From positions 32,001 through 96,000 of IMG/VR virus record IMGVR_UViG_3300005613_000006: DNA of 64,000 bases. One strand, 5' to 3'. Position numbers and translations under genes: made by a program. The notes beneath the pieces are model-generated. The model searched no databases. It worked only from the letters and a program-made list of their open reading frames with translations, and was not told the origin of the DNA. Source of the DNA: a virus. Below, one piece after another: positions 8,706 through 55,936 of the stretch (positions within the stretch are counted from its first letter, which is position 1; each line of letters begins with the position of its first letter).

Positions 8706-9824
8706 GTGGCTAATAACCGAATTTTCTACGCCTGCCAAAAAGCCGGAATCGCTCCTGCCGCGTCGTATGCGTTTCAGACTATCCGAGGTCTCCAAACCTT
8801 GGGTATCACAACGACATTCAACCTAGAGCAAGTGTTCGAGATTGGTCAACTGGCAATCTATGAAAATATCGAGGGTATTCCCGACGTGGAAGTTACCACC
8901 GAGAAAGTCATGGATGGGTACTCTCCTGTATACTGTCAAGCAACGCAGGGTTCTCCTGACTCTACGTTGGTTGGTCGCTCAAATTCTATCTGCAACCTTG
9001 GTGTTGCTATCTACGCTGACACAGCACAGTCTGCCTATGGCGCTCCTCTACAGGAAGTCCACATGTCGGGTATGTATGTGTCGAGCATTGGATACAACGT
9101 CACAGTTGATGGAAACGCTACTGAAAGTGTAACCCTCGTTGGTAACAACAAAGTGTGGGTTGGTGTCGCAGGCGAAAGCAACGGCACATTCACTGAAGTG
9201 GTTAATCCTGCTGGTGGTAGCATTCAGAATAACAATGACCAGCCAATGGCAATCAGCGGCTCTGGCGGTGTAAACCGTCGAGAGGACGTATTGTTTGGTT
9301 CAGACCTAGTTCGCCATACCATCTTGCCGCCTGAAATTCCAGGCATCATTGACAAGGGGTTGGGAAGTGGTACGAACGAGTTGGACGGCGACGGTCACTA
9401 CGGTGCCCACGTTCAATCCATAAACATTACCGCTGACCTTGGCCGTGAAGAGTTGTTTGAACTTGGTCGAAAGGGTACGTATCACCGATTCGTAACCTTC
9501 CCAGTTGAAGTTACAAGCGAAATCACCCTGATTGGTATTTCTGGTGACATGATTAGTGCCACTGAAGAAGGAATTTACCAAGTATCTGGTAGTGGTGCCG
9601 TTTGTGGTCGATACAACTTGGAAGACCAAGTAGTTATTCTGCGCTTGTGCGAAGGTCTACAGGTAGACTGCGGCAATAAGAACAAGCTGTCAACGGTCGG
9701 CGTGACAGGTGGAGATGCTGGTGGTGGAAACGTAGAAATTACGTACACCTACACGACATTCAACGACATGGATGTTCAGCACCCTCAAGACCCAGACGCA
9801 ACTACACGTCGAGTCATGCCGTAA
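8706..9824 (+). CDS. Major tail (tube) protein
   Basis: 372 aa, G/T/V-rich beta protein with its own promoter, strong RBS and terminator; precedes chaperones and tape measure; two related motifs (EQVFEIGQ / EELFELGR). Confidence 0.7.
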   Translation: MANNRIFYACQKAGIAPAASYAFQTIRGLQTLGITTTFNLEQVFEIGQLAIYENIEGIPDVEVTTEKVMDGYSPVYCQATQGSPDSTLVGRSNSICNLGVAIYADTAQSAYGAPLQEVHMSGMYVSSIGYNVTVDGNATESVTLVGNNKVWVGVAGESNGTFTEVVNPAGGSIQNNNDQPMAISGSGGVNRREDVLFGSDLVRHTILPPEIPGIIDKGLGSGTNELDGDGHYGAHVQSINITADLGREELFELGRKGTYHRFVTFPVEVTSEITLIGISGDMISATEEGIYQVSGSGAVCGRYNLEDQVVILRLCEGLQVDCGNKNKLSTVGVTGGDAGGGNVEITYTYTTFNDMDVQHPQDPDATTRRVMP

Positions 9825-15500: not shown

Positions 15501-18500
15501 TGCTCACCCCAGGCGAGTTTGTTATCAACAAACGTAGCGCCGACGCTATCGGTTTGAACAAGTTGAACCAACTCAATCGCGCCGACCGCAGCGCTGCGGG
15601 TGGTCGTATACAAGGCTTTGCCGATGGTGGTTTGGTGCAGCGTTTCCAGACAGGCGGCCAGACACAAGCAGCCGCCCAACAAGGAGGAAGCGGCCAGGGC
15701 TTGGCTCTGTTGTTTGCCATCACAGCAATCACCAGCGTAGCATCTAGCCTGACAGAAATGGACAGCGAGTTGGGTAAGACCATCAACACGTTGACCCAGT
15801 TCGCCCTCACCATTGTTACCCTTTCTACAGTCATGTCTAGTATCACCGGACTTGCTGGACAGGGAGGCTTGGTTGGAGCTATACAGAGAAGGTCGGCAGC
15901 GGCAGCGGCGGCACAGCAAGCGACGGGCCAACAATATCAACGTGCTGCGTTGCCGCGTGACCCTGGATTGGGTACATATACAAGTCGAGTCAGAGGAAGA
16001 GGGAGACCTTTTGAGGCTGAACGAACTGCCCGAGTGGCACAGCCGGGAGAAATCCCAGGCCAAAGTCCGGCAGACCGTCAAGCCGCGAGACAGGCCGCAC
16101 AAGCCGCAGCCGCGAGAGCCCCGGTTAGGACTCCGCGAGAAGCTGGTCTTGCTCAGGCCCCAACCTTTGGGACTGCACCAAGAAGAACTGTAGACACGGG
16201 CATTGCTCTCGGTGAACAGGCCGCTCGTCAAGACCGCAGAAGATTAACGGCAGGGCCAGGTTTAAGAGCCTTGGGCAGAGGATTGCGTAGAGCCGGTGCT
16301 GGTCTAGGCAGGATGGCTACTAATGCCAATGCAATGGCGGGAGCTGCAAGCGCGGCTACCGCAGCCCTGCTTATCTTTGGTCAGATGATGCAAAAACAAG
16401 CTGTGGAAGCAGCAAAAACTGCCGGTATTCAAAATGATGTAAATGCACTTCGCAAAGCGGAAGTTAAAGCAACCAAGGGCTGGGTTTTGGCCAAGGCTGG
16501 TCTTGGGGCTGGTGCTGGTGCTGCTATTGGTACACTTATAGCTCCTGGTATTGGAACCGCTATAGGTGCAGCTTTGGGTGGAGTCACAGGTGGTTTAATC
16601 GGCGCTTTGACGGACAACACCAAAGAAGTGCGCGCCGCGTTTAGAGCAGGCAGGGTAGAACAAACTACAGAACTTTTGACCGATTCTCTTAAAAGAGTTT
16701 TGACAGACAGAGCTACGCCAGGAGGAGCAGCCACAGCAGGCATTGGACAGGCTATTGAAGCCCAGATGGACGCCATCACCGAAGCTACGCTAGATGGTCG
16801 TAGAGAAGAAGCCGATTCTATACGCAAGGGCCTCAAGGGGCAACTGTCGCAGTTTGAGGCTTTGAGACAGAAGTTGATTGAGTCTAGTGCAAGCGTAGAA
16901 GAACTGGGGCGTGCGGGAAGAGGCGCTGGCAATATCTTGCTGCGACAAATTGCCTTTCAAACCAATCGAAGTTTCGCAGAGCTGCAACGAGAAACAGCCG
17001 AACTTATTCGCCAACACCAAGAGGCCGCTGCCGCTGCGCAACAAGTGTCTATCAGTTTGGGTGTTTTGGCCGACACCGCCCAAGCCACACAAATCTTCGC
17101 TGGGGCTGTGTCCGACTTAGAACAACAGACCAAGCGAGCCGCTGATACTGCCGGTATTTTTGCTGGTTTAGGAGCGGGGCGTGCCTCTGTGCCCGACTTC
17201 AAAGGAATCTTGGGAGCGCGAGCGTTTGAGCGCGCTGCCACTGGCCAAATTACAGAACAACAAGACCCGCAGTTGCGTTTGGCCATACGACAACTGTTGG
17301 GAACAGGCGAAGCTGCACAACGACTAGAGGGAGAAGTTCTGGCTATTGCTCAACTTACCCGAGAGTTGCCAGCCGTTCTGCGGGATTTGGCTAATGCCCC
17401 TCAGTTGGGAACCGAACAAGATTTAACTCGTCAGTTTTCTGACGCCATTACTGAAAAATTCCCACAAGTTGGGGATGAGCTGCTGGTTGTTATGACAGAC
17501 AGCCTGCGTCAAATCCAAAGAGAAGGTGGCCCTCCTGCGTTGATTCGCCGTATTCGTGCTGACGCGCGAAAAGTAGGTAATGAGCTAATTGGTGGGCGCG
17601 CCAACTTCTTGAAAGACTTGGACAAGGTACAACAAAGTTTCAACAACGTCGTCAAAACCATTAGCCAACTACAGAGCCAAGTATTTGACAGCGAAAAGCG
17701 TATTACCGACGCCAGAATCCAAGGGTCGAAGATTGCGCTGGCCAACGAAATTGCCTTGCGCAAGGCTCGACAGATTGAAGACCCCCTTCCATTAGACAGG
17801 CGCGTGGGCGCTATCCGTGAACAACAAGCTCAGAGAGTGGCGTTTACCGGACTTACGGGAGACCAAGCGCAAGACCCGCAGGCTCTTAGCCGTGCTATCC
17901 AAGGGATTACCGCACAAATCTTAGAGGCCCGTCGCCGTCTGTTTGACGCTTCTATCCAATCGCCAGAAGGCATTCAACAAGCCCAAGTAGAATTGGGTCG
18001 ATTGGTCAATACATCGGCTGTGCTTCGACAAGCCTTGCAAAATTTGGCCACCAGCACTGAAGAGTTCGCGGCGGTTCAAGACGAATTGTCTCGTCTACAG
18101 TCTGAACGTCAAGCGAGACAGGACTTTGTGGTTGACTACTTTGGCAGCACTCGACAACAACAAGTTGAAATAACACGCACGTTGGCTCAAACCTTTGTGG
18201 CGGGCACACGTAATTCATTCGATACATTTACAGAGCAACAGCGCATTGCTATTATTCGCTTTGTTAAGACGTTACGACAAGGTGAAAGAATCGCTGCTTT
18301 GCAAGACAGAACGTCGCGAGAGTTCTTGCGTGACGTTATCGGGGGCACTACGTTTATGAGTGGCGCTCCCATCCCGCCGGAGTTGAGCGACTTGTTTGTT
18401 CAACAGTTTGACCCGTCCTCAGAAGAGGAGCAATTAGCCAATACTCTTGAGCGGCTAGCTGAACGCCAAGCTACAGCCAATGAAGAACTTCGCAAGATTT

Positions 18501-21500
18501 TGGGAGACAACAACAATACGTTGGTCAATAATCTCAACAGCGCCAACGCTCAACAAATAGCTGACATGGCTAGTGACCGCGACCAGCTTGTAAATGGGCT
18601 GAATCAATCGTTTGGTAATTTCTTGCAACAGTTTACTCAGAGACAAAACCAATTTACTGCTGCTAGATTTGAAGCCCGTATTACTGGCGTTGAAACAGCC
18701 AAAACAGCCGCCGAGAAAAATCTGAAAGCAGCAGAACTTGCACAGCAGTTTGCGCGCAATTTAGGCTCAGACTTTGCGGGCTTGACGGAATCAGTCAATC
18801 TTATGAGAGACGTTGCGAGAATTTTTGACGATGTGTCCAAAGCGAGGGAGCAAGAGCAAGTACAACCGCGTATCCGAGAAGCTATCGGCAAGATTGTGGG
18901 CGACATTGAAGTTGCTGTGAAGAAGGGCGTAACTGTTCAAGCTGAAGAGTTGGATGCTTTGTTTGCTGGTCAAGCCGAGGCCCTTGGCCCTGAGACCGAC
19001 AGAATGCCGCTCGGAGCCGCTGGTCGTTCTTTGCAATTTGAATTTTTGAGAGAACTGAGTGAGCCTTTCAAAAGACAGCTTAGAGACCGATTGTTGGCAT
19101 ACCAACAAGCTATTGAAGAACCTTTGACTTATTGGGAGTCTGTTAGAGCTGGCCTTGGCGGAGTTGGCCAGGGAGACATCGACATAAGCGATATTGACCG
19201 CCTGCGCCGTCAAGTTGGTCGAGGCACCAAAATTGGTGCAAGGTTTAGGCTTGCCCGTAGAAATGCTGGCGTGGGGGATGTTCGTGGGGCTTTTGCTGTG
19301 AACACTATTAAGGTGTTGGAAGAGAGGGCTCGTAAAAGTAGAGCATCTGTGCAAGAAGACTTGGCTGGTGTTATCGACACCGAAACCACAAAGTTGCAGG
19401 GCAACATATTTGATTGGCGGAAGGCCATCAAAGATTTGGGCATTTCTGTTGAACAGTACGACCAGTTGGTAAGAGGAGACCAAATTGAGTCGATTCAGAA
19501 AATTACTGAACAGCTTCGAGGCATAGATGTTTCCAAACTGCCAGATACAGTTAATTCATTACAGGGAGAACTGGATAAATTGGCCGCAGCCTTGGAGACC
19601 TTTAACGAGAAGGTTGCCGCTGAAAACAAAGAGGCACAACAACTAAACCAGCAGGCGGTGGCCCCGCCAGCCGGTGTTCCTGTTCCACGCCGCGCCCAAG
19701 GTGGCCCCATCTTCCGCAGACGCGGAACCGATACCGTTCCGGCCATGCTGACCCCCGGCGAGTTCATCGTGAACGCCGCTGCCACGCGCCGCAACCTTCC
19801 TACATTGCAAAGCATTAACCGTGGTGTAGATTACAAGGCTGCCGGTGGCTTGGTGCAATACCTACAAGACGGAGGCGCGGCTCAGGATGTGCAGCCGGTC
19901 ATGGCTGACCCCAACACTGGAAGAGAAGTGATTCAACTTCTACGGCAGATTGCTCAAAACACATCGCGGCCAGCTACAAGACTTGCTACAGGAGGCGCAG
20001 TATTCAAGCCGCGCGGCACAGATACGGTTCCTGCTATGCTTACTCCTGGTGAGTTTGTCGTCAACCGCAAAGCAACACAGCAAAACCGAGGGCTCTTGGA
20101 AGCCATCAACAAAGGAAGCAACGTAGTACATGCTGCGGGTGGGGGCGTTGTGTACGCACAAGCTGGCGGCGAGATACGTCTTAGCTCCAACATTCCAACA
20201 CGAGGCCCAATCTGGGAGGCGTATTTGGAATGGGTACAGAGAAAATACCCCGACCTGTTTGACGATGCTCAAACGCCAGAAGATATTAGCAGGGTTGCCC
20301 GTGCAAGAAATAGACCAGAGTTTTCTGAGGAGACTATTGCTGCTCAACGCAGGGGTCAAAAGCCACAGTTTACTGAGCAAGACGTAAACGAACTGCGTCG
20401 TGTTAGCCAACTAAGGGATGAGTTCCGCCAGTCAACAGCTTATCGTGTCGCGGTTGAAGAACAAAAGCTGGCAAACGACAAGCGCAGAGAAGACCGCCGC
20501 GCAGCCAGCGGCATCCTCCCAATGGAACAACGTCTCAAGATGCTTGGTCGTGTTCCGTATGCAGAGAGACAGCGCAGACGGTATGGAGTTCCCTTGGCAG
20601 ACCGTCAAAGGGCTCTTATTCGTAGAAGATGGGCCGAGGCCAACGCTCGTCGGCAAAGACTGGGCAAACGTCCATTGCCACCACCTCCTCAACTACGAGG
20701 CCAAACGGAAGAGGATAAGAAAAGAGAAGAGGCAGCACGAGCGCCACTACAAGTCAAAGACGTTGCGGGTTTCCAGATTCGAGCAATCAACGAGTCGCGC
20801 ATCCGAGAAATCGCACGTTATACTTCATTAACTGGCAGCAACGCTAGGGATGAAGACCAGAAGTTTATTGCCACGCTGACCGGCGATGAAAAGGCTTTTG
20901 GTAGCTATCTATGGAATAAGTCAAGAGACGCCAGGGCAAAAAGCGTAGAAACTGTTACTGACAAGTTGTCTCGCAATGAAATTTTGACGCCTCAAGATAA
21001 CAGCTTGTTGGATAATCTAACTCGGAGTGAACGAGTCGGTATCGAAGCCGACGCGCAGAGACGCAGGAAGAGAGCTAAAGCCGACGCCTTAGCTGCCAAA
21101 CCTCCTGGGCCGCTGTCAGACGAAGAGTTGAACTTCTTTAGAAGTTTGTCTCCGGCTCAAAAAGACTATGTGCTTCAAAAAAGAAGAGCTGAATATATTG
21201 GTATTGCCACTGGTGACGATGTGGATGCGAGGACTGTAGAAATTGACAGGCTGGCTCGTAAAGCGCTCAAATCACCGGACCTATTGACTGAGACAGAACG
21301 AGAGTTCATCAACAACCTAGATGAAGACAGCCGTAAACTTGGAAGCGCGTTGCTGCGGTTAGAACGTAAGCAACAGGTAGACAGGCAACTACGCATCGAC
21401 CAACTGGCTTTGAAACTTCGTTCAAAGATTGCTGCTGAAAGAGATGTGGCTGCTGGGAAAGACATCGGATTTGACCCGAGCGTACTTCCTGATTTAACAG

Positions 21501-22435
21501 ACGATGAGAAACGGTTTTTCAACACTCTCACAGCCGCAGAGAAAGACCGCCTCAAACGTCGAACAGAGGCGGCTCGTCGAGCAGGTTTTAATACCGTAGA
21601 ATTGTTTGCTCGCGGGGGCGTTGTCCCAGGCATCGGTCATCAAGACATAGTTCCAGCTATGCTGACGCCAGGCGAATTGGTGATTCCAAAGAAGCAAGTA
21701 CAGCACATGGCCCAAGGTGGCATCGTACAGTATTTGCAGAATGGAGGGCCAAGCCGCACCACAACCACTACTTTTGACACAAACACTGGTATGCCTATTG
21801 AAGTAATGGCTAAGGTCGATTTGGAAACCAAGGTCGTCAAGCTAGAAGACAACACAGTAATGCTAGACGCTGGTAGCGCAGCCTCTATGGACGCGCTGGC
21901 CGCCGCTCTTGTAGCGTTTGGTCCGTCCAGCACAGCTTTGGCAACGGCGCTGGCCGGTTTTAACGCCGCCGGTCTTACCGAAGCCGTCACGGGATTCAAC
22001 ACTTCAGTTGGACAGTTGACAACCGCACTGGCTCCCCTGACCGCATTGCAAAACCTCAACCTACAACAACCCGTAGCTGAGTTTGGTGGATATGTGTCGG
22101 CGTTCGGCAACCAAGCCGGAGTCTTTGGTCTTCATGTTGGAACCTTTGGCACACAGGTCGCAGGATTTGGAACACAGGTTTCCAATATGCAAAATGCCTT
22201 CAACTCGTTCACCACGAACCTCGACCCATTGATTGGTCGCTTTGAGGAGGTTGTTGGGGGGTTCCCAGACACCGTGGCAGTTACAGTAACACACGGAGAC
22301 CTCAATGTGAACGTCTTTGGTTTGGATGGCTTGTCTGCCGACCTTGAAGACACTCTTGTAGGAGGCATTCAAGACCGCGTGATGGCAGCAGTCAAGGAAG
22401 AGTTTAGGAACTGGGGAACTGAAGGAGGAACGTAA
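12566..22435 (+). CDS. Tape measure protein, 3289 aa (TP901-type core, TM/glycine-zipper segments, five GG...DTVPAMLTPGEFV repeats)
   Basis: N-terminal TP901-family core (AIDFERQL..VAQVTG, NAVAGQFAVES.DI..AL.R.G, ESADSIATGFRTIFTRI); Ala/Gln-rich helical sequence; position. Confidence 0.92.
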   Translation: MAQQFNIVAQLSLRGPTNLAQVQRRIQAGLRNIRADVQVNIGRGAQRGLQRTNRQLRDVANTLALVTGNAQAAAAALTNVGAAYGAAAGGGAAAARGASQTAGAMSNVAGAAGAATSSMQEFGRISALAVRRFLAFSIPAGIVVGLIVNIRQGVKAAIDFERQLIKVAQVTGKTTGSLADLTGEVTRLATTFGVASADLLNVSRILAQTGLSAKDTEIALQALAKSDLAPTFDSIEQTAEGAIAAMRQFGIEAKDLEAALGSINAVAGQFAVESGDITSALRRTGGAFQAAGGEINELIALFTSVRATTRESADSIATGFRTIFTRIQRPRTIEFLRDLGIELQDLQGRFVGPFETVRRLNLALRELDPRDVRYSQIIEQLGGFRQVSKVIPLIQQFDTAQQALAVAIGGTNSLTEDAATAQQALAVQAAKVGEQFQALFRRITGSSTFQVIARSALQLASGFSKVLETLEPLLPLLTSLVGLKLAQVGTQFGLGFIGGLRNVGTAAAGVAAAGPGTQQAATQQQRQSTVTTANTTAISSNTTILTTLNTTLTTLTTAVNNLTQRIGGLGGGGVRRPARGGRIHKFARGGLVPGVGNGDTVSAQLEPGEFVIRKKAVESIGADQLAGMNRKAAGGRISIEGKPGTDYAGFFFRPVGKRDLKERARYNRTFANAPRVADIANQKMLELGFSGLKAVQPGGVIPVTGGPGKRKGPIDFKALGVTKKGMFQQLKARGAISPKQAESSWVPTAANFEGKTVNKQFFASVKAEGGAVVRGTGTGTSRVTTADVGSAEKIGRPVGMGISVGVRSRFKKVSDAYLVRFLQGFTTGRKPAMPKPLGGGALSVGKATEIMNKIGVESLQGGMFEGMIDAVAGGVQAGTGKGGFFDHVVPNMKNKRAVDSLFSDDKTIDRIKYADAKRTRTNQQISSLVKKAVNTFPTDRNSFNVLYDLPKRITDKNKGKPKRIELAKGGPTTDTVPAMLTPGEFVINKRSADAIGLNKLNQLNRADRSAAGGRIQGFADGGLVQRFQTGGQTQAAAQQGGSGQGLALLFAITAITSVASSLTEMDSELGKTINTLTQFALTIVTLSTVMSSITGLAGQGGLVGAIQRRSAAAAAAQQATGQQYQRAALPRDPGLGTYTSRVRGRGRPFEAERTARVAQPGEIPGQSPADRQAARQAAQAAAARAPVRTPREAGLAQAPTFGTAPRRTVDTGIALGEQAARQDRRRLTAGPGLRALGRGLRRAGAGLGRMATNANAMAGAASAATAALLIFGQMMQKQAVEAAKTAGIQNDVNALRKAEVKATKGWVLAKAGLGAGAGAAIGTLIAPGIGTAIGAALGGVTGGLIGALTDNTKEVRAAFRAGRVEQTTELLTDSLKRVLTDRATPGGAATAGIGQAIEAQMDAITEATLDGRREEADSIRKGLKGQLSQFEALRQKLIESSASVEELGRAGRGAGNILLRQIAFQTNRSFAELQRETAELIRQHQEAAAAAQQVSISLGVLADTAQATQIFAGAVSDLEQQTKRAADTAGIFAGLGAGRASVPDFKGILGARAFERAATGQITEQQDPQLRLAIRQLLGTGEAAQRLEGEVLAIAQLTRELPAVLRDLANAPQLGTEQDLTRQFSDAITEKFPQVGDELLVVMTDSLRQIQREGGPPALIRRIRADARKVGNELIGGRANFLKDLDKVQQSFNNVVKTISQLQSQVFDSEKRITDARIQGSKIALANEIALRKARQIEDPLPLDRRVGAIREQQAQRVAFTGLTGDQAQDPQALSRAIQGITAQILEARRRLFDASIQSPEGIQQAQVELGRLVNTSAVLRQALQNLATSTEEFAAVQDELSRLQSERQARQDFVVDYFGSTRQQQVEITRTLAQTFVAGTRNSFDTFTEQQRIAIIRFVKTLRQGERIAALQDRTSREFLRDVIGGTTFMSGAPIPPELSDLFVQQFDPSSEEEQLANTLERLAERQATANEELRKILGDNNNTLVNNLNSANAQQIADMASDRDQLVNGLNQSFGNFLQQFTQRQNQFTAARFEARITGVETAKTAAEKNLKAAELAQQFARNLGSDFAGLTESVNLMRDVARIFDDVSKAREQEQVQPRIREAIGKIVGDIEVAVKKGVTVQAEELDALFAGQAEALGPETDRMPLGAAGRSLQFEFLRELSEPFKRQLRDRLLAYQQAIEEPLTYWESVRAGLGGVGQGDIDISDIDRLRRQVGRGTKIGARFRLARRNAGVGDVRGAFAVNTIKVLEERARKSRASVQEDLAGVIDTETTKLQGNIFDWRKAIKDLGISVEQYDQLVRGDQIESIQKITEQLRGIDVSKLPDTVNSLQGELDKLAAALETFNEKVAAENKEAQQLNQQAVAPPAGVPVPRRAQGGPIFRRRGTDTVPAMLTPGEFIVNAAATRRNLPTLQSINRGVDYKAAGGLVQYLQDGGAAQDVQPVMADPNTGREVIQLLRQIAQNTSRPATRLATGGAVFKPRGTDTVPAMLTPGEFVVNRKATQQNRGLLEAINKGSNVVHAAGGGVVYAQAGGEIRLSSNIPTRGPIWEAYLEWVQRKYPDLFDDAQTPEDISRVARARNRPEFSEETIAAQRRGQKPQFTEQDVNELRRVSQLRDEFRQSTAYRVAVEEQKLANDKRREDRRAASGILPMEQRLKMLGRVPYAERQRRRYGVPLADRQRALIRRRWAEANARRQRLGKRPLPPPPQLRGQTEEDKKREEAARAPLQVKDVAGFQIRAINESRIREIARYTSLTGSNARDEDQKFIATLTGDEKAFGSYLWNKSRDARAKSVETVTDKLSRNEILTPQDNSLLDNLTRSERVGIEADAQRRRKRAKADALAAKPPGPLSDEELNFFRSLSPAQKDYVLQKRRAEYIGIATGDDVDARTVEIDRLARKALKSPDLLTETEREFINNLDEDSRKLGSALLRLERKQQVDRQLRIDQLALKLRSKIAAERDVAAGKDIGFDPSVLPDLTDDEKRFFNTLTAAEKDRLKRRTEAARRAGFNTVELFARGGVVPGIGHQDIVPAMLTPGELVIPKKQVQHMAQGGIVQYLQNGGPSRTTTTTFDTNTGMPIEVMAKVDLETKVVKLEDNTVMLDAGSAASMDALAAALVAFGPSSTALATALAGFNAAGLTEAVTGFNTSVGQLTTALAPLTALQNLNLQQPVAEFGGYVSAFGNQAGVFGLHVGTFGTQVAGFGTQVSNMQNAFNSFTTNLDPLIGRFEEVVGGFPDTVAVTVTHGDLNVNVFGLDGLSADLEDTLVGGIQDRVMAAVKEEFRNWGTEGGT

Positions 22436-40244: not shown

Positions 40245-40720
40245 GGTCTTTTAGCCTCCACGATGAAATGGTATCCTGTGACACGCTTTTTGATGATAGT
40301 CAATCCCATTGTCGCAAGAAAATTTGATAGACCCAAAGCTGTCAGCGTTATCTTCTTGACAAACTGTGGATTATCGGCGGCGTGTCCGTGCAAATGCGCG
40401 TTGGCTTGATGCACGTCAATCGCATAGGTTGTGAAACCCTTGCAGACCTCATACAAGTCGGTGCCTCCGATAATAAGTGTGCCACCGTGGCGCAGTTTGG
40501 CAACCCAGTGTGACAGTACATCCATCACAATATCTGCTGGCAGATAATCAATCACGTCGTTGGCAACGATTTCTGTGGCCTCGGCGTCGTCCACCCACGC
40601 ACTAAGTTTGAATGTTGGGTCACCAATCTTGAGTTCGTCCGTTTCCTCGGTAGCAAATGGACTGACATTTAGGTAACCGCTTCGCGGTTCCTCTTCTGTG
40701 TACAACAGGTTTATTCTCAT
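40241..40720 (-). CDS. Class I SAM-methyltransferase-like protein
   Basis: GYLNV, EIVANDVIDYL, W..KLRHGGTLII, VEAKRP; probable start MRINL. Confidence 0.6.
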   Translation of the reverse strand: MRINLLYTEEEPRSGYLNVSPFATEETDELKIGDPTFKLSAWVDDAEATEIVANDVIDYLPADIVMDVLSHWVAKLRHGGTLIIGGTDLYEVCKGFTTYAIDVHQANAHLHGHAADNPQFVKKITLTALGLSNFLATMGLTIIKKRVTGYHFIVEAKRP

Positions 40721-41727
40721 AGCGTCACCGCCTTCCTGAATATCTCGTCCCACTTATGTGTGAATCTTTCTAGCGAGAACTTCTCTTCTACAGTTCTACG
40801 TCCTGCCTCCCCAATCTCACGCGCCATAGTTGGGTTGTCCAACAGGGTTTGTGTGTACGCGCGCAACTCTTGAAGGTCGTTCGACACGAATCCATTGACT
40901 CCATGCTCAATCACAATCTCAGGAATGAGACACGTCGCCGTGGACACTACCGGAGTACCACACGCCATCGCTTCCAGAATAACAGTAGGAAGGGAGGACA
41001 CGGTTGTTGTGTTGAGGTAGACCGAGGCGGTGTTGTAGGCTTCAATCAGGGCCTCGACCGACTCAGCCGGTTCGGACAATCCTGGTGTACCGCCCAAAAC
41101 CTTGACTGGAATTATCGAGCCCTTGCCGGTAACTTGCTCCCAGATACGGTAGCCACAGCACCAATCCCTATTTATCCAGTCGTTACACACCGACAAAACT
41201 ACCTTTTCACGCTCCATATCCAGCGGTCGGAACATTTCCAGGTCAAGACCAGTGTGGTTCACTTCGCCGTGGTCGTCTGGGAAGCCCCAGGCTTGGCGAC
41301 CGTACTCGCTCACGAACACGTCAATGTCGCCACTCATTTCCCTGGCTTGCGCCTTCTGGACCTCAGTGTATTCCGGCATGGGCAGTGTATGTTCCATACT
41401 GATAAGTGGCACCTTCAATAGGTTGGATAACGCCTGCCCATACTGGAATTGTCCTACTTTGTTTTGTGATAGTATCACGTCAATGTCAACCCAGTGTGGA
41501 ATCTGGTCGTCGCCCATGCGCGAATCAAGCAGCATGTAGTTGGGTGGCACCGGAGCGTAGTCTTTGTTCCAGTCCTTAATCCCTTCTGCTCTCCACGCAT
41601 AGAAGTTGTGACCACACTGACACATCATGGTTTCGTAGCGCTCATGCGTCGGAAACGTCAGGATGTTCAAGGGTTCATCTTCGCCGCGCGTGGCGTAGCG
41701 AAGGAGTGTGTGTATTTGACTTGGCAT
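40717..41727 (-). CDS. Glycosyltransferase family 4 (GT-B)
   Basis: VFVSEY, GLDLEMFRP, LPTVILEAMACGTPVVST, IEHGVNGF, IGEAGRRTVEEKFS. Confidence 0.9.
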   Translation of the reverse strand: MPSQIHTLLRYATRGEDEPLNILTFPTHERYETMMCQCGHNFYAWRAEGIKDWNKDYAPVPPNYMLLDSRMGDDQIPHWVDIDVILSQNKVGQFQYGQALSNLLKVPLISMEHTLPMPEYTEVQKAQAREMSGDIDVFVSEYGRQAWGFPDDHGEVNHTGLDLEMFRPLDMEREKVVLSVCNDWINRDWCCGYRIWEQVTGKGSIIPVKVLGGTPGLSEPAESVEALIEAYNTASVYLNTTTVSSLPTVILEAMACGTPVVSTATCLIPEIVIEHGVNGFVSNDLQELRAYTQTLLDNPTMAREIGEAGRRTVEEKFSLERFTHKWDEIFRKAVTL

Positions 41728-42063
41728 TCAATCTTCCTTCCTGTGAATCTGCAACATACGACCATCTTGCAAAGCAATTTCTCCTGGTCTCTTTCCATGC
41801 CCACAACAACTTCCCCTCATATCAATGCCTGCGGCTTGTAGCGCGGCTACTATTGGGGCAACACATGCGTCGATTTGTGCAAATTTCCATTTTTCTTTTC
41901 CGGTACAACTTAGGTCGGCGGGAATCTTGACGTATACACCAACGGGCTGTTTTCCACATCGCTTACACGGGCGAACACCGGCTGTTTCACCTGTGTCTAC
42001 CCAGACCCATTGTGAACCATTCCACACAATTTCATGTCCGTGTGATTCGCTAGTTGCTGTCAT
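41728..42063 (-). CDS. Hypothetical Cys-rich protein (IDxC...AL...GI....SCCGH motif)
   Basis: RPCKRCGK plus IDACVAPIVAALQAAGIDMRGSCCGHG. Confidence 0.55.
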   Translation of the reverse strand: MTATSESHGHEIVWNGSQWVWVDTGETAGVRPCKRCGKQPVGVYVKIPADLSCTGKEKWKFAQIDACVAPIVAALQAAGIDMRGSCCGHGKRPGEIALQDGRMLQIHRKED

Positions 42064-42542
42064 TGAAAATCTGCTTTTAATATCCTCTTGGCCGCTTCTC
42101 TATCCATCATTGCAAGGCTCAAATCTACGTTATGTTCTTCCCAGCCGTAAAAGCCAGCACGTCGCGGTTCGCCTATCCCAAATACTTTTTGAACAGCGGC
42201 TTCACTGACAATACCGTGGTCTCTAGCCAGTAGGATTTCCCTTCGAGTCTGCTCATCCATTTGGTCACACCCCCAGAGGCGCATCTCTTCCATTGCCTCG
42301 GGGCTAACGAACAAGTCGTTTAACTTTGAGGTATCTGGTTGGGGCAGCTTGGCAGTACGCTCAAGAATCTCTCGTAGCTCTTGCTTAGATAGAGTCCGAC
42401 AATCACATAGGAGACCTGGGCCAGGATTGGGGTTCCACCCATCATCAGTCACAACCACCTTCGGTGTTTCTTCGGCCTTGACCAGCGCTGCCGGTGCAAG
42501 CAGGGCAGCCACACAGGCTTTGAGAAAGTTACGTCTTTGCAT
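42060..42542 (-). CDS. Tat-signal protein carrying major-capsid-protein-derived segments
   Basis: MQRRNFLK plus hydrophobic h-region plus VKA; aa 73-108 match MCP 201-236 (26/36 identical) and aa 127-137 match MCP 310-320 (10/11). Confidence 0.8.
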   Translation of the reverse strand: MQRRNFLKACVAALLAPAALVKAEETPKVVVTDDGWNPNPGPGLLCDCRTLSKQELREILERTAKLPQPDTSKLNDLFVSPEAMEEMRLWGCDQMDEQTRREILLARDHGIVSEAAVQKVFGIGEPRRAGFYGWEEHNVDLSLAMMDREAAKRILKADFQ

Positions 42543-43134
42543 GGTCTTTGTCCTTCAAAAAGTCTAACGGAAACTCAGGACAAGCCATAGGCGGAAGCCG
42601 TTGAATGTCAAACCCTTTTGTGTCCTCAACAAACTGCATGTAGTCTGCTACATATCTATCAGCGGCTTTCTGGTCCACAATCTCAATCTCCGAAGTAACC
42701 TCTACCGGAAAGTCTACCATTCGGTGGTACGGCGCGCGGCGTCCAAGTTCCCAAAGTTCTTCCCTCTCCATCTGTTCGACTGTCTTCCACTGATGGTGAG
42801 CAAGCATGTCTGAAAATTCACCATCGGGCACTATACATTTGTCAATGTCCTCCTCTTTGAAGACGGCGTTAGGGCGATAGTCTTGATATACGCGCTCACA
42901 CTCTTCCAAAAACGCTTTCAGTCCCTCGTTGGCATGGTTTGTTGCCTCGATATTCTTCTCGAAACTCTTTCTCAGCAGACTCATAGCCCGCTCAACACCC
43001 TCCCACCGTGGTTCTTTGACGTTATCCAGCACAAAATCAACTGGTGGTTCAGGCTTTGCAGTCACGGTCTTGACCAACGCTAGCGGAGCCAGCAGGGCAG
43101 CCGCCGCAGCCTTTAGGAAACCTCTTCGTTCCAT
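42529..43134 (-). CDS. Tat-signal protein carrying tail-tube- and MCP-derived segments
   Basis: MERRGFLK plus h-region; aa 124-150 match tail tube 247-273 (21/27), aa 33-60 match MCP 116-143 (12/28), aa 180-193 match MCP 62-75 (10/14). Confidence 0.8.
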   Translation of the reverse strand: MERRGFLKAAAAALLAPLALVKTVTAKPEPPVDFVLDNVKEPRWEGVERAMSLLRKSFEKNIEATNHANEGLKAFLEECERVYQDYRPNAVFKEEDIDKCIVPDGEFSDMLAHHQWKTVEQMEREELWELGRRAPYHRMVDFPVEVTSEIEIVDQKAADRYVADYMQFVEDTKGFDIQRLPPMACPEFPLDFLKDKDHAKT

Positions 43135-44378
43135 TTGTCTATTCCTTCGATGCTGTGTTGTTGAGTTACGTCTACCAGTCTCCCCTTGCCAGACCAGTAT
43201 TGATAATATGGTCCTTTACTCCCCAGTTCTCCCTCAAGGGCTTCCTTCATTTGCTCGCCCACCGCTTGATAGGAGAAGTCATAAGCGCGGTCAATACCAA
43301 TGTCAGCCCTTTGTTTTCTTTTATCCTCCTGCTCGAACGCTTCACGCATGGCTCTCTGCAATCCGCGAATGCTGATGCTTTCCCAATTCTCGTTTCCTTG
43401 GAAAAGGTCGGGCATGATGTTGTCGGCGGTCATACCGAAACAGGGCTCTGTGTGTGTGGGAACCAACCACCCGCCCAAACCGCCACCCTTTTCTCCAGCG
43501 GGTCGGTAGATGAATTCGCTCATGCCTCCAACTTGAGAACAGATTGGAGTCTTTCCCATTGCCATAGCGTCAAACGCTGGGATACACCAGCTTTCACCAT
43601 AGGACGGCATCACGAAGCAGTCACACGTATTGTGTAGCATCATCATCTTCTGTTCGTCAAACCGTTGCGTGATGATGATTTCGCCAAGGAAATCATCCTC
43701 GTTGGGATACAGCTTCAACTCTCGTTTGATTTGGACACAGATTTCCTGCACATGTTTGTCGCACTCGCCAGCGGGCATACCGCTTAGATTAGCCTTAATC
43801 ACTAGCGTAACAGGCTCCGACTTACGGAATTCTAAATGATAGGCTTTCAGCAGAGCGGCCAAGTTCTTGCGCCTCGTCACTTCGCCAATCGTGTAGAACA
43901 CAAACTTGCCGCGAAGTTGTGGTATCTTGATTTTCTCGTAGTGACGAGCATACTTGCTTGGGTCACATGGAACTGGCATCACACGCATTGGTCTTTGAAC
44001 ATAACTGTTGGTCGAAGCGCGTAGCATTTGTTCATTGCATACCCATGCTTCATCCATCAAGTTCAATCGCTCGGCCCAGAAGGCGTTGCGGAAGTGGCTG
44101 GTTTCACTATGGAACAACCCGATATTCTTATCAAAGTGTCCACAGTAATCCATCATGTGTGGCAGTATATGTTGAATCACAACATCACAGCCTTCATCAC
44201 TCTGGGCTTCCAGTTCTACGATACGCTCTGGCACTTCAACCTCGGCGTCGTTCAACTTGATTGGTCGAGGCACAACCTCAACGCCTGCGGCATCCAGTGC
44301 GAGGATGTAGTTTTCAGCCGCGTGACTCCATCCGGTGCCATCTCGATAAACACCCAAAAATAAAACTTTATTTGACAT
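43113..44378 (-). CDS. Glycosyltransferase family 4
   Basis: TGWSHAA..Y..AL, FYTIGE..RRKNL, DCFVMPSYGESWCIPAFDAMAMGK. Confidence 0.88.
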   Translation of the reverse strand: MSNKVLFLGVYRDGTGWSHAAENYILALDAAGVEVVPRPIKLNDAEVEVPERIVELEAQSDEGCDVVIQHILPHMMDYCGHFDKNIGLFHSETSHFRNAFWAERLNLMDEAWVCNEQMLRASTNSYVQRPMRVMPVPCDPSKYARHYEKIKIPQLRGKFVFYTIGEVTRRKNLAALLKAYHLEFRKSEPVTLVIKANLSGMPAGECDKHVQEICVQIKRELKLYPNEDDFLGEIIITQRFDEQKMMMLHNTCDCFVMPSYGESWCIPAFDAMAMGKTPICSQVGGMSEFIYRPAGEKGGGLGGWLVPTHTEPCFGMTADNIMPDLFQGNENWESISIRGLQRAMREAFEQEDKRKQRADIGIDRAYDFSYQAVGEQMKEALEGELGSKGPYYQYWSGKGRLVDVTQQHSIEGIDKWNEEVS

Positions 44379-44919
44379 GTTGAGTTACCTTCTTGCACAA
44401 TGCGACGAATTCATCATGTGTTAGATTCCATTTCATCGTCTGGATTGATTTGTATATCCAATGGATGTTATTTTTAGTGTAGCCTTTAGAAGAGTCGATG
44501 CGGTCTAATGACGCCAAGTTGTCTTTTTTGTTATCTCTTTTTGTTACACCCTTGGGTAGCGTTAAGCATAAGCCAGTATATGGACAAACGCCACCTTGTT
44601 TTATCCACTGTTTCCATAAGTCTTTTGGCATCACTTTGACAGCAATATCTCGCTTATTGGCATTTCGTTGGACACGATTAAAGTATGCGCCATATATCCC
44701 TTCGTGTCCAGAAAATCCAGATGCGTTTTTACCGCGAGATAGACAACCACAGCTTCGTGTTTTGTTGCCAGTTAAGTGATACTTCTTAACTTCTGTAGTA
44801 TTGCCACATTCACATTGACATAACCACCATTCGTGTCGCTTGCGTGTTTTTGCTATTTTGATTGCTGTTAATAGACCAAACTTCTGACCAGCAATGTCTT
44901 TCCAATTCTTGTGTCTCAT
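44368..44919 (-). CDS. HNH-family homing endonuclease
   Basis: GQKFGLLT, WLCQCECG, RSCGC, CPYTG, ASLDRIDSSKGY...NIHW; AT-rich. Confidence 0.85.
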   Translation of the reverse strand: MRHKNWKDIAGQKFGLLTAIKIAKTRKRHEWWLCQCECGNTTEVKKYHLTGNKTRSCGCLSRGKNASGFSGHEGIYGAYFNRVQRNANKRDIAVKVMPKDLWKQWIKQGGVCPYTGLCLTLPKGVTKRDNKKDNLASLDRIDSSKGYTKNNIHWIYKSIQTMKWNLTHDEFVALCKKVTQHVK

Positions 44920-55134: not shown

Positions 55135-55421
55135 ACTATCAACTCCAATTTCTGCAAGAGACCTTCCACTTCTTTCCTATTCCCTTTTTGATGAGCCTGC
55201 ACCAACGCCATACACAGATAGCGCAGCTTCCACAAGTCGTTGACAATCATGTGCATTGCGTTGCCAGAGATAACGTGGTCAGGTCCCTTAATCTCTTGAT
55301 TGATAGCCACAAGAGTGTCCAAATCCATAATGCGACGATTGAACGTCAGCTTCGGAGTGGCTGGTCCTGGTTCTGGTTTTGGCTTGTCGCTTGGTGGCGG
55401 CGTTGGCGCTTTAGCACCCAT
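55131..55421 (-). CDS. Hypothetical protein with a Pro-rich N-terminus
   Basis: Probable start MGAKAPTPPP, overlapping the upstream stop. Confidence 0.5.
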   Translation of the reverse strand: MGAKAPTPPPSDKPKPEPGPATPKLTFNRRIMDLDTLVAINQEIKGPDHVISGNAMHMIVNDLWKLRYLCMALVQAHQKGNRKEVEGLLQKLELIV

Positions 55422-55936
55422 TAGAATGCTCCCATTATTATCGTATCTGGTCTGGTACAAACCACACCAAGAGACATGTTTCCATAGTTGTGTACTTCCA
55501 ACTGTTTGTTCTCTGGTATCAACGTAAGAAAGGAACTGACCTTAGTGCAATCGAGATAAACAGCCAAATGCTTCTTCCCAACCGGGAGTGAACCGGCTAA
55601 CTCATTAACGAAGAAGTTGTACAACTCTTGGTCTGGGTCGAGGTCCATCATATCGTGCACAGTCACATGGGAACTCATCGCCGTTACGTAGCGATAAAGT
55701 TCATCACTACCAAAAGCATCATCCCAAGCATCAGTTCCGATAGCAACGTCGGTGATTCTATGCGTCCCATTTCTTCTCGCTACAGTCTTGCACAACGCAG
55801 ATAGGCGTGGGGTAAATTGTCCACACTTTGCCTCGTCGTCATACACCATTATGTTGCGATGCGTTCCAGATGCCAGTATGGTGTGCCACTGGTCACAGAA
55901 AATCTTGCGAACAAAGGATTTGTTGAAGAGTTCCAA
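55421..55936 (-). CDS. Truncated major capsid protein paralogue (C-terminal ~60% of MCP)
   Basis: aa 1-57 align ungapped to MCP 134-190 (31/57, counting the start residue as Met); a later block aligns to MCP 245-271 (14/27); ends IMGAF versus MVGSF; TTG start with RBS GAGGT. Confidence 0.85.
   Translation of the reverse strand: MELFNKSFVRKIFCDQWHTILASGTHRNIMVYDDEAKCGQFTPRLSALCKTVARRNGTHRITDVAIGTDAWDDAFGSDELYRYVTAMSSHVTVHDMMDLDPDQELYNFFVNELAGSLPVGKKHLAVYLDCTKVSSFLTLIPENKQLEVHNYGNMSLGVVCTRPDTIIMGAF

What the first reader, a model, noticed from the sequence alone, without database searches (positions are those of the whole stretch)
42556..43038. 201-aa Tat protein is a head/tail chimera with MCP pieces in permuted order
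Order in the ORF: MCP 116-143-like (DFVLDNVKEPRWEGVERAMSLLRKSFEK versus DWILKYARDARWDIVGRAMQVLQASFTK, 12/28); then tail tube 247-273-like (REELWELGRRAPYHRMVDFPVEVTSEI versus REELFELGRKGTYHRFVTFPVEVTSEI, 21/27; nt 42765-42685 versus 9444-9524); then MCP 62-75-like (LPPMACPEFPLDFL versus LEPGAAPEFPLDFV, 10/14). Pieces from two different genes, out of native order and all in frame, imply several independent capture events into one ORF, like a protein-level cassette array. The remaining linkers could derive from virion genes outside the window.
Basis: partly seen in the sequence, partly recalled or inferred. Interest (0 to 1): 0.85.

Follow-up and report, generated by a model that had tools for sequence, protein, structure and literature searches.

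The report
Export-tagged mosaic of virion-protein pieces
A large T5-like phage carries small, selectively maintained genes that join a twin-arginine (Tat) export-type leader to shuffled short copies of its own capsid, tail-tube and probably portal proteins; the genes belong to a combinatorial family I could not find described, and its function is untested.

Summary
The 201-aa ORF (window 42529-43134, minus strand) has a Tat-type leader. Behind it come a capsid-like block (aa 32-60), a tail-tube block (aa 104/124-153) and a second capsid-like block (aa 180-193) taken from an earlier part of the capsid protein. All three beat shuffled controls.

The source genes are an HK97-fold capsid protein and a T5 pb6-like duplicated tail tube. 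Synonymous sites between copies and sources are saturated, so the blocks are old and kept by protein-level selection (dN/dS about 0.08 between orthologues).

The gene is one of three such genes in this phage. A leader-profile search of 1.84 billion proteins returned only small proteins. Eleven of the 22 family proteins examined carry other combinations and orders of the same capsid and tube cassettes. One carries a T4 gp23 piece.

In three related contigs the same locus, between two conserved glycosyltransferase genes, holds different cassette genes.

The "cassette array" reading is largely supported. "Recent independent capture" and "linkers from terminase or portal" are not.

Function is unknown. 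I favour an exported virion-segment mimic or decoy. This scan has noted leader-plus-capsid-fragment genes before on other phage DNA; I found no paper describing them.

The parts
42529..43134 (-). tat201: 201-aa gene made of a Tat-type leader plus a mosaic of virion-protein pieces
   Evidence: ORF with an AAGGA-N8-ATG ribosome site; overlaps the stop of the upstream GT gene and the start of tat160. Orthologue P0002.
43057..43134 (-). Leader, aa 1-26: MERRGFLK, an Ala/Leu h-region, Lys in the c-region, then VTA|K
   Evidence: RRxFLK motif by inspection. TIGR01409 scores 16.0 bits (cut-off 16.7); PF10518 scores 14.6 bits (cut-off 22.7). Leader dN 0.19 with dS saturated against P0002.
42955..43041 (-). 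Capsid-like block A, aa 32-60, resembling MCP 140-168
   Evidence: 12/29 identical; shuffle p 1e-4; MCP HMM iE 4e-5.
42676..42825 (-). Tail-tube block, aa 104-153 (core 124-153), resembling tube 229-276
   Evidence: 26/51 identical, core 21/30; E 6e-13; HMM iE 2e-14; 26/33 identical to orthologue P0002 with dN/dS about 0.08.
42556..42597 (-). Capsid-like block B, aa 180-193, resembling MCP 87-100 (out of native order)
   Evidence: 10/14 identical; pairwise E 3e-4; 1/1000 shuffles reach it; the homologous block in P0013 scores iE 6e-8.
42060..42542 (-). tat160: second leader gene, with MCP 226-272 and MCP 334-345 pieces
   Evidence: 26/36 identical, E 1e-11 genome-wide; RRAGFYGWEEH block p 1e-5; orthologue P0004.
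2603..3685 (+). Major capsid protein (HK97 fold), the source family of the capsid-like blocks
   Evidence: NF042927 E 3.6e-8; phage G major head; best fold hits are capsid proteins; 75 relatives at 55-76% identity.
8706..9824 (+). Tail tube protein (T5 pb6-like, two tube domains), the source family of the tube block
   Evidence: AF2 pLDDT 76; Foldseek E 8.5e-11 to the SH-Ab15497 major tail protein, with T5, DT57C and P74-26 tail chains following; upstream of the tape measure protein.
43113..44378 (-). GT1 glycosyltransferase (421 aa), the conserved upstream flank of the variable locus
   Evidence: PF00534; 63-77% identical homologues flank P0009 and P0013.
41728..42063 (-). 111-aa Cys-rich protein, the conserved downstream flank
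   Evidence: 88% and 73% identical homologues follow P0009 and P0013; also present after P0004.
40717..41727 (-). GT1 glycosyltransferase (336 aa), the conserved downstream flank
   Evidence: PF00534; 91% and 72% identical homologues in L204 and L205.
55421..55936 (-). Leaderless 171-aa paralogue of MCP 159-360 in the replication operon
   Evidence: 33% identity over 204 aa, E 4e-30.

Best explanation
SHOWN.
- tat201 is a real gene under purifying selection. It sits in the minus-strand block of sugar-metabolism and replication genes, opposite the plus-strand structural genes, so it is presumably expressed early or in the middle of infection.
- It encodes a twin-arginine (Tat) type leader followed by a mosaic of short segments that copy conserved parts of the phage's own HK97-fold capsid protein and T5 pb6-like tail tube.
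- It belongs to a family defined by a nearly constant leader (M-x-RR-x-FLK-A-rich-AP-x-A-x-x-K-A) and a combinatorial body.
- This phage has three members: tat201, tat160 and tat138. Together they carry pieces of MCP 87-120, 140-168, 226-272 and 334-345, tube 229-276 and, probably, portal 379-397.
- Relatives carry the same cassettes in other numbers and orders, at a hypervariable locus between conserved glycosyltransferase genes.

INFERRED.
- The leader takes the protein to the Tat translocase and through the inner membrane, where it is cleaved after VTA.
- The conserved blocks work by mimicry. They present the same peptide surfaces as the virion proteins to a partner that recognises those surfaces. 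The protein therefore acts as a decoy or competitor, made before the late proteins appear.
- The partner is not identified. My odds: a factor in the envelope, such as parts of an incoming related phage (exclusion or gatekeeping), about 35%. A cytoplasmic host sensor of core virion proteins that is bound and tethered or carried out by the leader, about 30%. The phage's own or a rival's assembly intermediates, about 15%. Something else, about 20%.
For: Gene reality: ribosome sites and overlapping stop/start codons.

Leader: the RRxFLK motif, a Lys in the c-region and an AxA-like site in all members. The Tat profiles are the top hits, just under their cut-offs.

Blocks: significant against the sources and against the family HMMs.

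Selection: synonymous sites are saturated against the sources. Between orthologues, blocks and leader have dN 0.16-0.22 with dS of 2.0 or more. The tube block is 79% identical between tat201 and P0002 (26/33); outside it and the leader the two proteins align only sparsely, with long gaps.

Shared derived residues mark the family: W in EELWELG and Q/L in DEQTRxEIL, against F/I/L and I/V..Y in true tube and MCP proteins.

Family: the leader-profile search gave 19 hits at E<=1e-3, all 73-216 aa.

Variable locus.

Sister phage G004 has two adjacent leader genes. One carries an MCP piece that follows G004's own MCP variant: QPGT.KDYVAY, where the window phage's MCP has APGTEKDFVAY.

A gp23-type example, P0022, scores 29.8 bits on PF07068, over the cut-off.

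The sources (capsid, tube, portal) are among the conserved core virion proteins; a 2026 paper (PMC13581612, abstract seen) reports bacterial STAND receptors that sense the core phage proteome. That capsid, portal and tail tube are individual triggers is from my own knowledge.
Against: No export, binding or phenotype has been tested. Capsid and portal proteins are not expected in the periplasm during infection, so an envelope target for those pieces is not obvious.

The pieces tile much of the MCP rather than one epitope, which fits poorly with a single specific sensor.

The Tat profile scores stay under the curated cut-offs.

The ESM Atlas model of tat201 is poor (pTM 0.19), whereas classical Tat substrates are folded.

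Leaderless relatives exist in the same genome: the 171-aa MCP paralogue and a 238-aa ORF with a tube 115-151 block. Export is therefore not required for keeping virion pieces.

25 related large genomes lack full-length homologues of tat201 and tat160, so the genes are dispensable.
Confidence: 0.5

Rival explanations
1. Cytoplasmic anti-defence decoy. The pieces bind host pattern-recognition proteins that sense capsid, tube, portal or terminase. They block or mop these up before late proteins appear. The leader only tethers the complex at the membrane or clears it.
For: The source proteins are core virion proteins, the class that STAND receptors are reported to sense (PMC13581612, abstract seen). 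The genes lie with early/middle genes on the strand opposite the late genes. Leaderless MCP and tube fragments occur in the same genome. One protein carries pieces from several sources.
Against: A copy of a trigger would be expected to trigger the sensor rather than block it. The leader is the most conserved part of the family and has a cleavage site, which argues for real export. No defence gene or host is known for this phage.
Confidence: 0.2
2. Assembly interference. The fragments act as dominant-negative pieces that insert into capsid or tube assembly intermediates of co-infecting relatives, as Tab of phage JBD26 blocks tail assembly. Alternatively they delay the phage's own assembly.
For: The tube block covers a strand, a conserved low-confidence loop and a strand in the second tube domain. 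In an isolated subunit model this is the kind of element that usually packs against neighbours (inference). Phage-encoded blockers of virion assembly exist (PMC10884400).
Against: The blocks are closest to the phage's own proteins: 70-72% identity, against mostly 45-67% to relatives. They would therefore poison the phage itself. An export leader would remove them from the site of assembly.
Confidence: 0.1
3. Glyco-acceptor carrier. The flanking glycosyltransferases glycosylate the same acceptor segments in virion proteins and in these small proteins, which are then exported folded and modified via Tat.
For: The locus lies between two GT1 genes inside a sugar-nucleotide and GT operon. The same flanks occur in L204 and L205. 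Tat can carry proteins matured in the cytoplasm (established knowledge). A periplasmic effector matured in the cytoplasm is described in PMC13128918.
Against: Other family members sit in unrelated contexts: replication genes for P0014, small-ORF regions of T4-like phages for P0012 and P0022, and other genes for P0011. No acceptor motif is common to the cassettes.
Confidence: 0.07
4. By-product of recombination. Fragments of abundant structural genes are scattered by illegitimate recombination and happen to lie behind a leader, without any function of their own.
For: Rapid turnover at the locus, absence from most relatives, and a poor fold prediction.
Against: Blocks and leader show strong purifying selection with saturated synonymous sites. 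The same design recurs in phages with an unrelated capsid family. Frames are intact with good ribosome sites.
Confidence: 0.05

Closest known systems
Twin-arginine (Tat) signal peptides and small Tat substrates (Pfam PF10518, NCBIfam TIGR01409)
   Same: N-terminal M-x-RR-x-F-L-K, a moderately hydrophobic Ala-rich h-region, a basic residue in the c-region and an AxA-type site. The Tat profiles are the best hits to the leader.
   Different: Scores stay just under the curated cut-offs. The passenger is not a cofactor enzyme but a mosaic of virion-protein pieces with no confident fold. The leader is far more constant across members than ordinary Tat leaders are.
Hepatitis B virus precore protein / e-antigen (own knowledge; an analogy only)
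   Same: A virus makes a second form of its capsid protein sequence behind a signal peptide, so that it enters the export pathway instead of assembling.
   Different: HBeAg is one colinear, nearly full-length core protein in an animal virus. Here short pieces from several virion proteins are shuffled, the pathway is bacterial Tat, and there is no homology.
Tab, the tail assembly blocker of Pseudomonas phage JBD26 (PMC10884400)
   Same: A small phage-encoded accessory protein directed at virion morphogenesis proteins of phages.
   Different: Tab is a cytoplasmic prophage protein and is not built from copies of virion proteins. No leader. Sequence similarity was not tested here.
Gol region of T4 gp23 and the Lit protease of prophage e14 (own knowledge)
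   Same: A short internal segment of a major capsid protein is by itself a recognised ligand for a host factor.
   Different: Gol is part of the capsid protein itself, not a separate gene. Nothing here shows a Lit-like partner.
T5 Llp lipoprotein and other early envelope-located exclusion proteins (own knowledge); HxsA periplasmic gatekeeper (PMC13128918)
   Same: Exported proteins that act in the envelope on phage entry. The phage here has T5-like capsid and tube folds.
   Different: Llp blocks the receptor FhuA, and HxsA binds DNA and is bacterial. Neither resembles virion proteins, and there is no sequence relation.
Truncated or duplicated capsid paralogues, such as the 171-aa MCP paralogue in this window
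   Same: Derived from the major capsid protein gene and kept as a separate gene.
   Different: Those are colinear domain-sized copies (33% identity over 204 aa). tat201 has only 14-29-aa capsid pieces, permuted and mixed with a tube piece behind a leader.

Membership tests
Tat signal peptide (PF10518 / TIGR01409) | Twin-arginine motif (S/T)-R-R-x-F-L-K near the N-terminus | tested here: met
   MERRGFLK (tat201), MQRRNFLK (tat160), MKRRSFLK (P0002), MRRRNFLK (P0004).
Tat signal peptide (PF10518 / TIGR01409) | h-region of about 12-20 mildly hydrophobic residues, a basic c-region and an AxA-type cleavage site | tested here: met
   AAAAALLAPLALV-K-TVTA|K in tat201...ALVKA|E in tat160; by inspection.
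Tat signal peptide (PF10518 / TIGR01409) | Profile score above the curated cut-off | tested here: inconclusive
   TIGR01409: 16.0 bits against 16.7. PF10518: 14.6 bits against 22.7 for tat201. P0020 reaches 21.7.
Tat signal peptide (PF10518 / TIGR01409) | Export that depends on TatABC and on the RR pair | not testable with these tools
   Needs reporter fusions in wild-type and tat mutant cells. The host is unknown.
HK97-fold major capsid protein | Colinear homology over the capsid fold (N-arm, E-loop, P and A domains) | tested here: not met
   tat201 matches only MCP 140-168 and 87-100, in reversed order. The source gene itself matches NF042927 at E 3.6e-8, and its best fold hits are capsid proteins.
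T5 pb6-type tail tube protein | Complete tube domain(s) able to form a ring | tested here: not met
   tat201 holds only the equivalent of tube 229-276. The source gene matches the SH-Ab15497 major tail protein and T5, DT57C and P74-26 tail chains at E 1e-9 to 1e-10.
Leader-plus-virion-fragment family (undescribed; defined here) | The conserved leader M-x-RR-x-FLK...AP.A..K followed by a body of 50-190 aa | tested here: met
   Profile A5 finds 19 proteins at E<=1e-3, all 73-216 aa.
Leader-plus-virion-fragment family (undescribed; defined here) | The body contains significant pieces of capsid, tube or portal proteins of the same phage group | tested here: met
   11 of 22 members match the MCP HMM and 4 match the tube HMM at E<0.01. 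P0022 matches Gp23. For the rest no cognate phage was available.
Tab-like assembly blockers | Sequence or fold similarity to Tab; block of tail assembly | not tested
   No Tab sequence was compared. The function needs an assay.

The most novel reading that the evidence does not exclude
Tailed phages of unrelated capsid lineages (HK97/T5-like here, T4 gp23-like elsewhere) share a dedicated 'self-mimic export' device. One constant Tat leader is recombined with interchangeable cassettes copied from their own core virion proteins. The result is a fast-evolving panel of exported decoys that neutralise whatever recognises those proteins, whether host receptors or rival phages. This would be a bacterial-virus counterpart of secreted capsid antigens of animal viruses.
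Probability: 0.3. Interest if true: 0.9.

Novelty: categorically new. Interest (0 to 1): 0.8.

Why it matters
If the blocks work by mimicry, this is a modular way for a virus to copy short surfaces of its most conserved proteins, shuffle them, and send them to another compartment. It would point directly to which segments of capsid, tube and portal are 'seen' by some partner, so the cassettes could serve as ready-made probes for finding that partner.

The family is also a clear natural case of new genes built by combining in-frame fragments of old ones. Closely related loci capture different stages of that process.

It is testable with simple reporter fusions, pull-downs and plaque assays.

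Tried and rejected
1. Full-length homology to one known family. Pfam, PHROGs and NCBIfam give nothing beyond sub-threshold Tat-signal hits. This refutation route failed.

2. Terminase origin of the aa 70-111 linker. A viral-contig scan found a TerL of an unrelated phage (L001) with 48% identity over 42 aa, pairwise p 4e-8. About 1e8 proteins were effectively screened through an exact 8-mer seed, so this is near chance. The phage's own intein-bearing TerL gives p 0.5. Left unresolved; not used.

3. Extension of the tube block to aa 96-119 (DIDKCIVP against DMQKCIIP of some tube homologues). The tube HMM does not support it.

4. Full-length homologues of tat201 and tat160 in 25 related large phage genomes: none, only hits to their MCP and tube genes.

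5. Complex prediction of tube plus mature tat201: 'no answer'. No conclusion drawn either way.

6. The AF2 model of the MCP was of low confidence (pLDDT 52). I therefore did not map the capsid blocks onto a structure.

7. The promoter/terminator scan was no better than shuffles.

9. The ESM Atlas gave only weak leads.

10. Microhomology at junctions was not pursued, because the sequences are too diverged.

11. Literature searches for Tat leader plus phage capsid fragment found no description.

Full report
SETTING. The window is bases 32001-96000 of a 172,878-bp viral contig. The plus-strand structural module is as follows.
- TerL with an intein-like insert, then a 774-aa portal candidate, lie just upstream of the window.
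- A 529-aa coiled-coil protein lies at 594-2183.
- The major capsid protein lies at 2603-3685.
- The tail tube lies at 8706-9824.
- A 3289-aa tape measure protein lies at 12566-22435 (PF10145).

The capsid call rests on three results: NF042927 'HK97-fold major capsid protein' at E 3.6e-8, a weak hit to the phage G major head protein, and fold hits led by T5 pb8 in which the best matches are capsid proteins, from a low-confidence model. The tube call rests on an AF2 model (pLDDT 76). That model matches the SH-Ab15497 major tail protein and T5, DT57C and P74-26 tail chains at E 1e-9 to 1e-10. The phage is therefore a distant T5-like siphovirus.

THE GENE. ORF 42529-43134 (minus strand, 201 aa) has an AAGGA-N8-ATG ribosome site. 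It overlaps the stop of the upstream GT1 glycosyltransferase gene and the start of the next ORF, tat160 (42060-42542). tat160 has the same ribosome site and overlaps the following 111-aa Cys-rich gene. The surrounding minus-strand block encodes an epimerase, a nucleotidyltransferase, GT2 and GT1 enzymes, NUDIX, SSB and DnaE pieces. These are non-structural genes, presumably early or middle.

CHECK OF THE OBSERVATION. All three blocks are present at the stated places.
- Tube block: 21/27 identical, extending to 26/51. BLASTP E 6e-13, genome-wide tblastn E 9e-9, 0/1000 shuffles with Gumbel p 3e-13, tube-family HMM iE 2e-14.
- MCP 140-168-like block: 12/29 identical. Pairwise E 2e-5, genome-wide E 0.006, shuffle p 1e-4, HMM iE 4e-5.
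- MCP 87-100-like block: 10/14 identical. Pairwise E 3e-4, genome-wide E 0.24, 1/1000 shuffles, HMM iE 0.06. It is weak alone. It gains support from P0013, a family member with the homologous, longer block in the same relative order (iE 6e-8).
- Negative controls are at chance.

AGE AND SELECTION. Between blocks and sources, nucleotide identity is 47-62% and third-position identity about 30%. Only 31 of 79 codons for identical residues are identical. The copies are therefore old and do not result from recent capture or gene conversion.

One metagenomic contig (L157) carries orthologues of both genes in the same order, followed by the Cys-rich gene. Between orthologues the tube block is 26/33 identical and the MCP block about 19/27 identical. 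dN is 0.17-0.22 and dS is 2.0-2.6. The leaders have dN 0.16-0.19 with saturated dS. Outside the blocks and the leader the proteins barely align. The orthologues share derived residues that true tube and MCP proteins lack: W in EELWELG, and Q and L in DEQTRxEIL. The blocks were therefore already in the common ancestor of these small genes and have been kept there by selection.

A FAMILY, NOT A ONE-OFF.
1. The phage has a third leader gene outside the window, tat138 (genome 134435-134851). It carries an MCP 93-120 block (15/28, E 1e-4) and a portal-like block (10/19, shuffle p 1e-3).
2. tat160 carries MCP 226-272 and MCP 334-345.
3. The sister phage G004 (MCP 76% identical) has two adjacent leader genes next to sugar genes and SSB. 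One carries an MCP 100-120 piece that follows G004's own MCP spelling.
4. A profile of the 32-residue leader was searched against 1.84 billion representatives. It returned 19 proteins at E<=1e-3, all 73-216 aa long.
5. Mapping these proteins with BLAST and with HMMs of the capsid and tube families gives:
   - P0002 = tube 228-273
   - P0004 = tube 5-44 | MCP 229-259 | MCP 336-360
   - P0009 = MCP 137-160 | MCP 226-241
   - P0011 = MCP 329-360 | MCP 226-256 | tube 191-273
   - P0013 = MCP 140-146 | MCP 67-103
   - P0014 = MCP 110-120 | MCP 289-360
   - P0008 = MCP 120-136
   Head-plus-tail chimeras and permuted order therefore recur.
6. P0022 has the same leader and a piece of T4-type Gp23 (PF07068, 29.8 bits, over the cut-off). 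P0012 lies in a T4-like context. The design thus crosses capsid lineages. This agrees with earlier unchecked notes of this scan on other genomes.

A HYPERVARIABLE LOCUS. Contigs L204, L205 and L157 carry the same flanks: GT1-421, the 111-aa Cys-rich gene and GT1-336. The flanks are 63-91% identical in protein and 70-86% in DNA. Between them lie P0009 alone, P0013 alone, or P0002 plus P0004. At the DNA level L204 aligns with the window through the flanks and the leader. It is then unalignable except for one 85-nt piece (85% identity) that corresponds to the tat160 linker plus the start of its MCP cassette. This pattern suggests exchange and replacement of modules among family members.

'Head/tail chimera' and 'cassette array with variable content and order' hold. 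'Several independent capture events' is possible but not shown; the data favour old cassettes that are reshuffled. The proposal that the linkers come from portal or terminase is not borne out for tat201. A terminase-like match to an unrelated phage is near chance once database size is counted.

MECHANISM. Shown: a Tat-type leader, conserved virion-protein pieces under selection, and a non-structural genomic context. Inferred: export, followed by action through mimicry.

The tube block spans a strand, a conserved loop of low model confidence and a strand in the second tube domain. In an isolated subunit model this is typical of an element that packs against neighbours, but that is inference.

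I favour a decoy or competitor role, with the target unknown. The main difficulty is that capsid and portal pieces have no obvious partner in the periplasm. The main alternative is a cytoplasmic decoy for host sensors of core virion proteins (PMC13581612), but that leaves the strongly conserved export leader unexplained. Assembly interference (compare Tab, PMC10884400), a glyco-acceptor role and non-function are less likely, for the reasons given under rivals.

The complex prediction gave no verdict. No expression data could be obtained.

NOVELTY. I found no paper describing Tat-leader proteins built from phage virion fragments. The library is limited to open-access papers. The scan has seen leader-plus-capsid-fragment genes before in other phages. 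This case adds the multi-source mosaic (capsid, tube and probably portal), the combinatorial family and the variable locus.

Noticed in passing
window 55421-55936 (-): A 171-aa leaderless paralogue of MCP residues 159-360 (33% identity, E 4e-30) sits among replication genes.
   Followed up: partly
G000:C1:21078-21794 (-), outside the window: A 238-aa ORF without a leader carries a block resembling tube 115-151 (16/37, DGNETESVTLVGN; E 2e-5 in the all-against-all search).
   Followed up: partly
G000:C1:134435-134851 (-), outside the window: Third Tat-leader gene (tat138), with an MCP 93-120 block and a portal-like block.
   Followed up: yes
G000:C1:135311-136261 (-) = L201:5311-6261: A 316-aa trypsin-like peptidase (PF13365) with a Sec-type signal peptide lies two genes upstream of tat138. 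It is an exported phage protease of unknown role.
   Followed up: no
G000:C1:26820-30233 (+), just upstream of the window: The large terminase lies in a 1137-aa open frame. Terminase_6N and 6C matches are about 2 kb apart, and the sequence between them looks like an intein with a homing endonuclease.
   Followed up: no
window 44368-44919 (-): An HNH endonuclease gene (phrog_374, E 2e-24) is inserted in the sugar-gene operon. It has paralogues elsewhere in the genome.
   Followed up: no
window 8706-9824 (+): The tail tube protein has two tube domains. The internal repeat EQVFEIGQ...PDVEVTTEK resembles EELFELGR...FPVEVTSEI, as in T5 pb6.
   Followed up: partly
G000:C1:1-366 and 171744-172139: ORFs at the two contig ends are 93% identical over 119 aa. 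This may be a terminal repeat or a diverged duplication.
   Followed up: no
G004:C1:100991-101356 and 89119-89364: The second leader gene of the sister phage shares a Cys-rich block (17/35, E 1e-8) with another small ORF of that genome. The source is not a known virion protein.
   Followed up: no
G005 (L120 and L142): One related contig holds two tube homologues, one with large insertions (477 aa). This is either a real duplication or a chimeric assembly.
   Followed up: no
window 41728-42063 (-): A 111-aa Cys-rich protein always follows the leader genes in four contigs (73-88% identical). It matches no family.
   Followed up: partly
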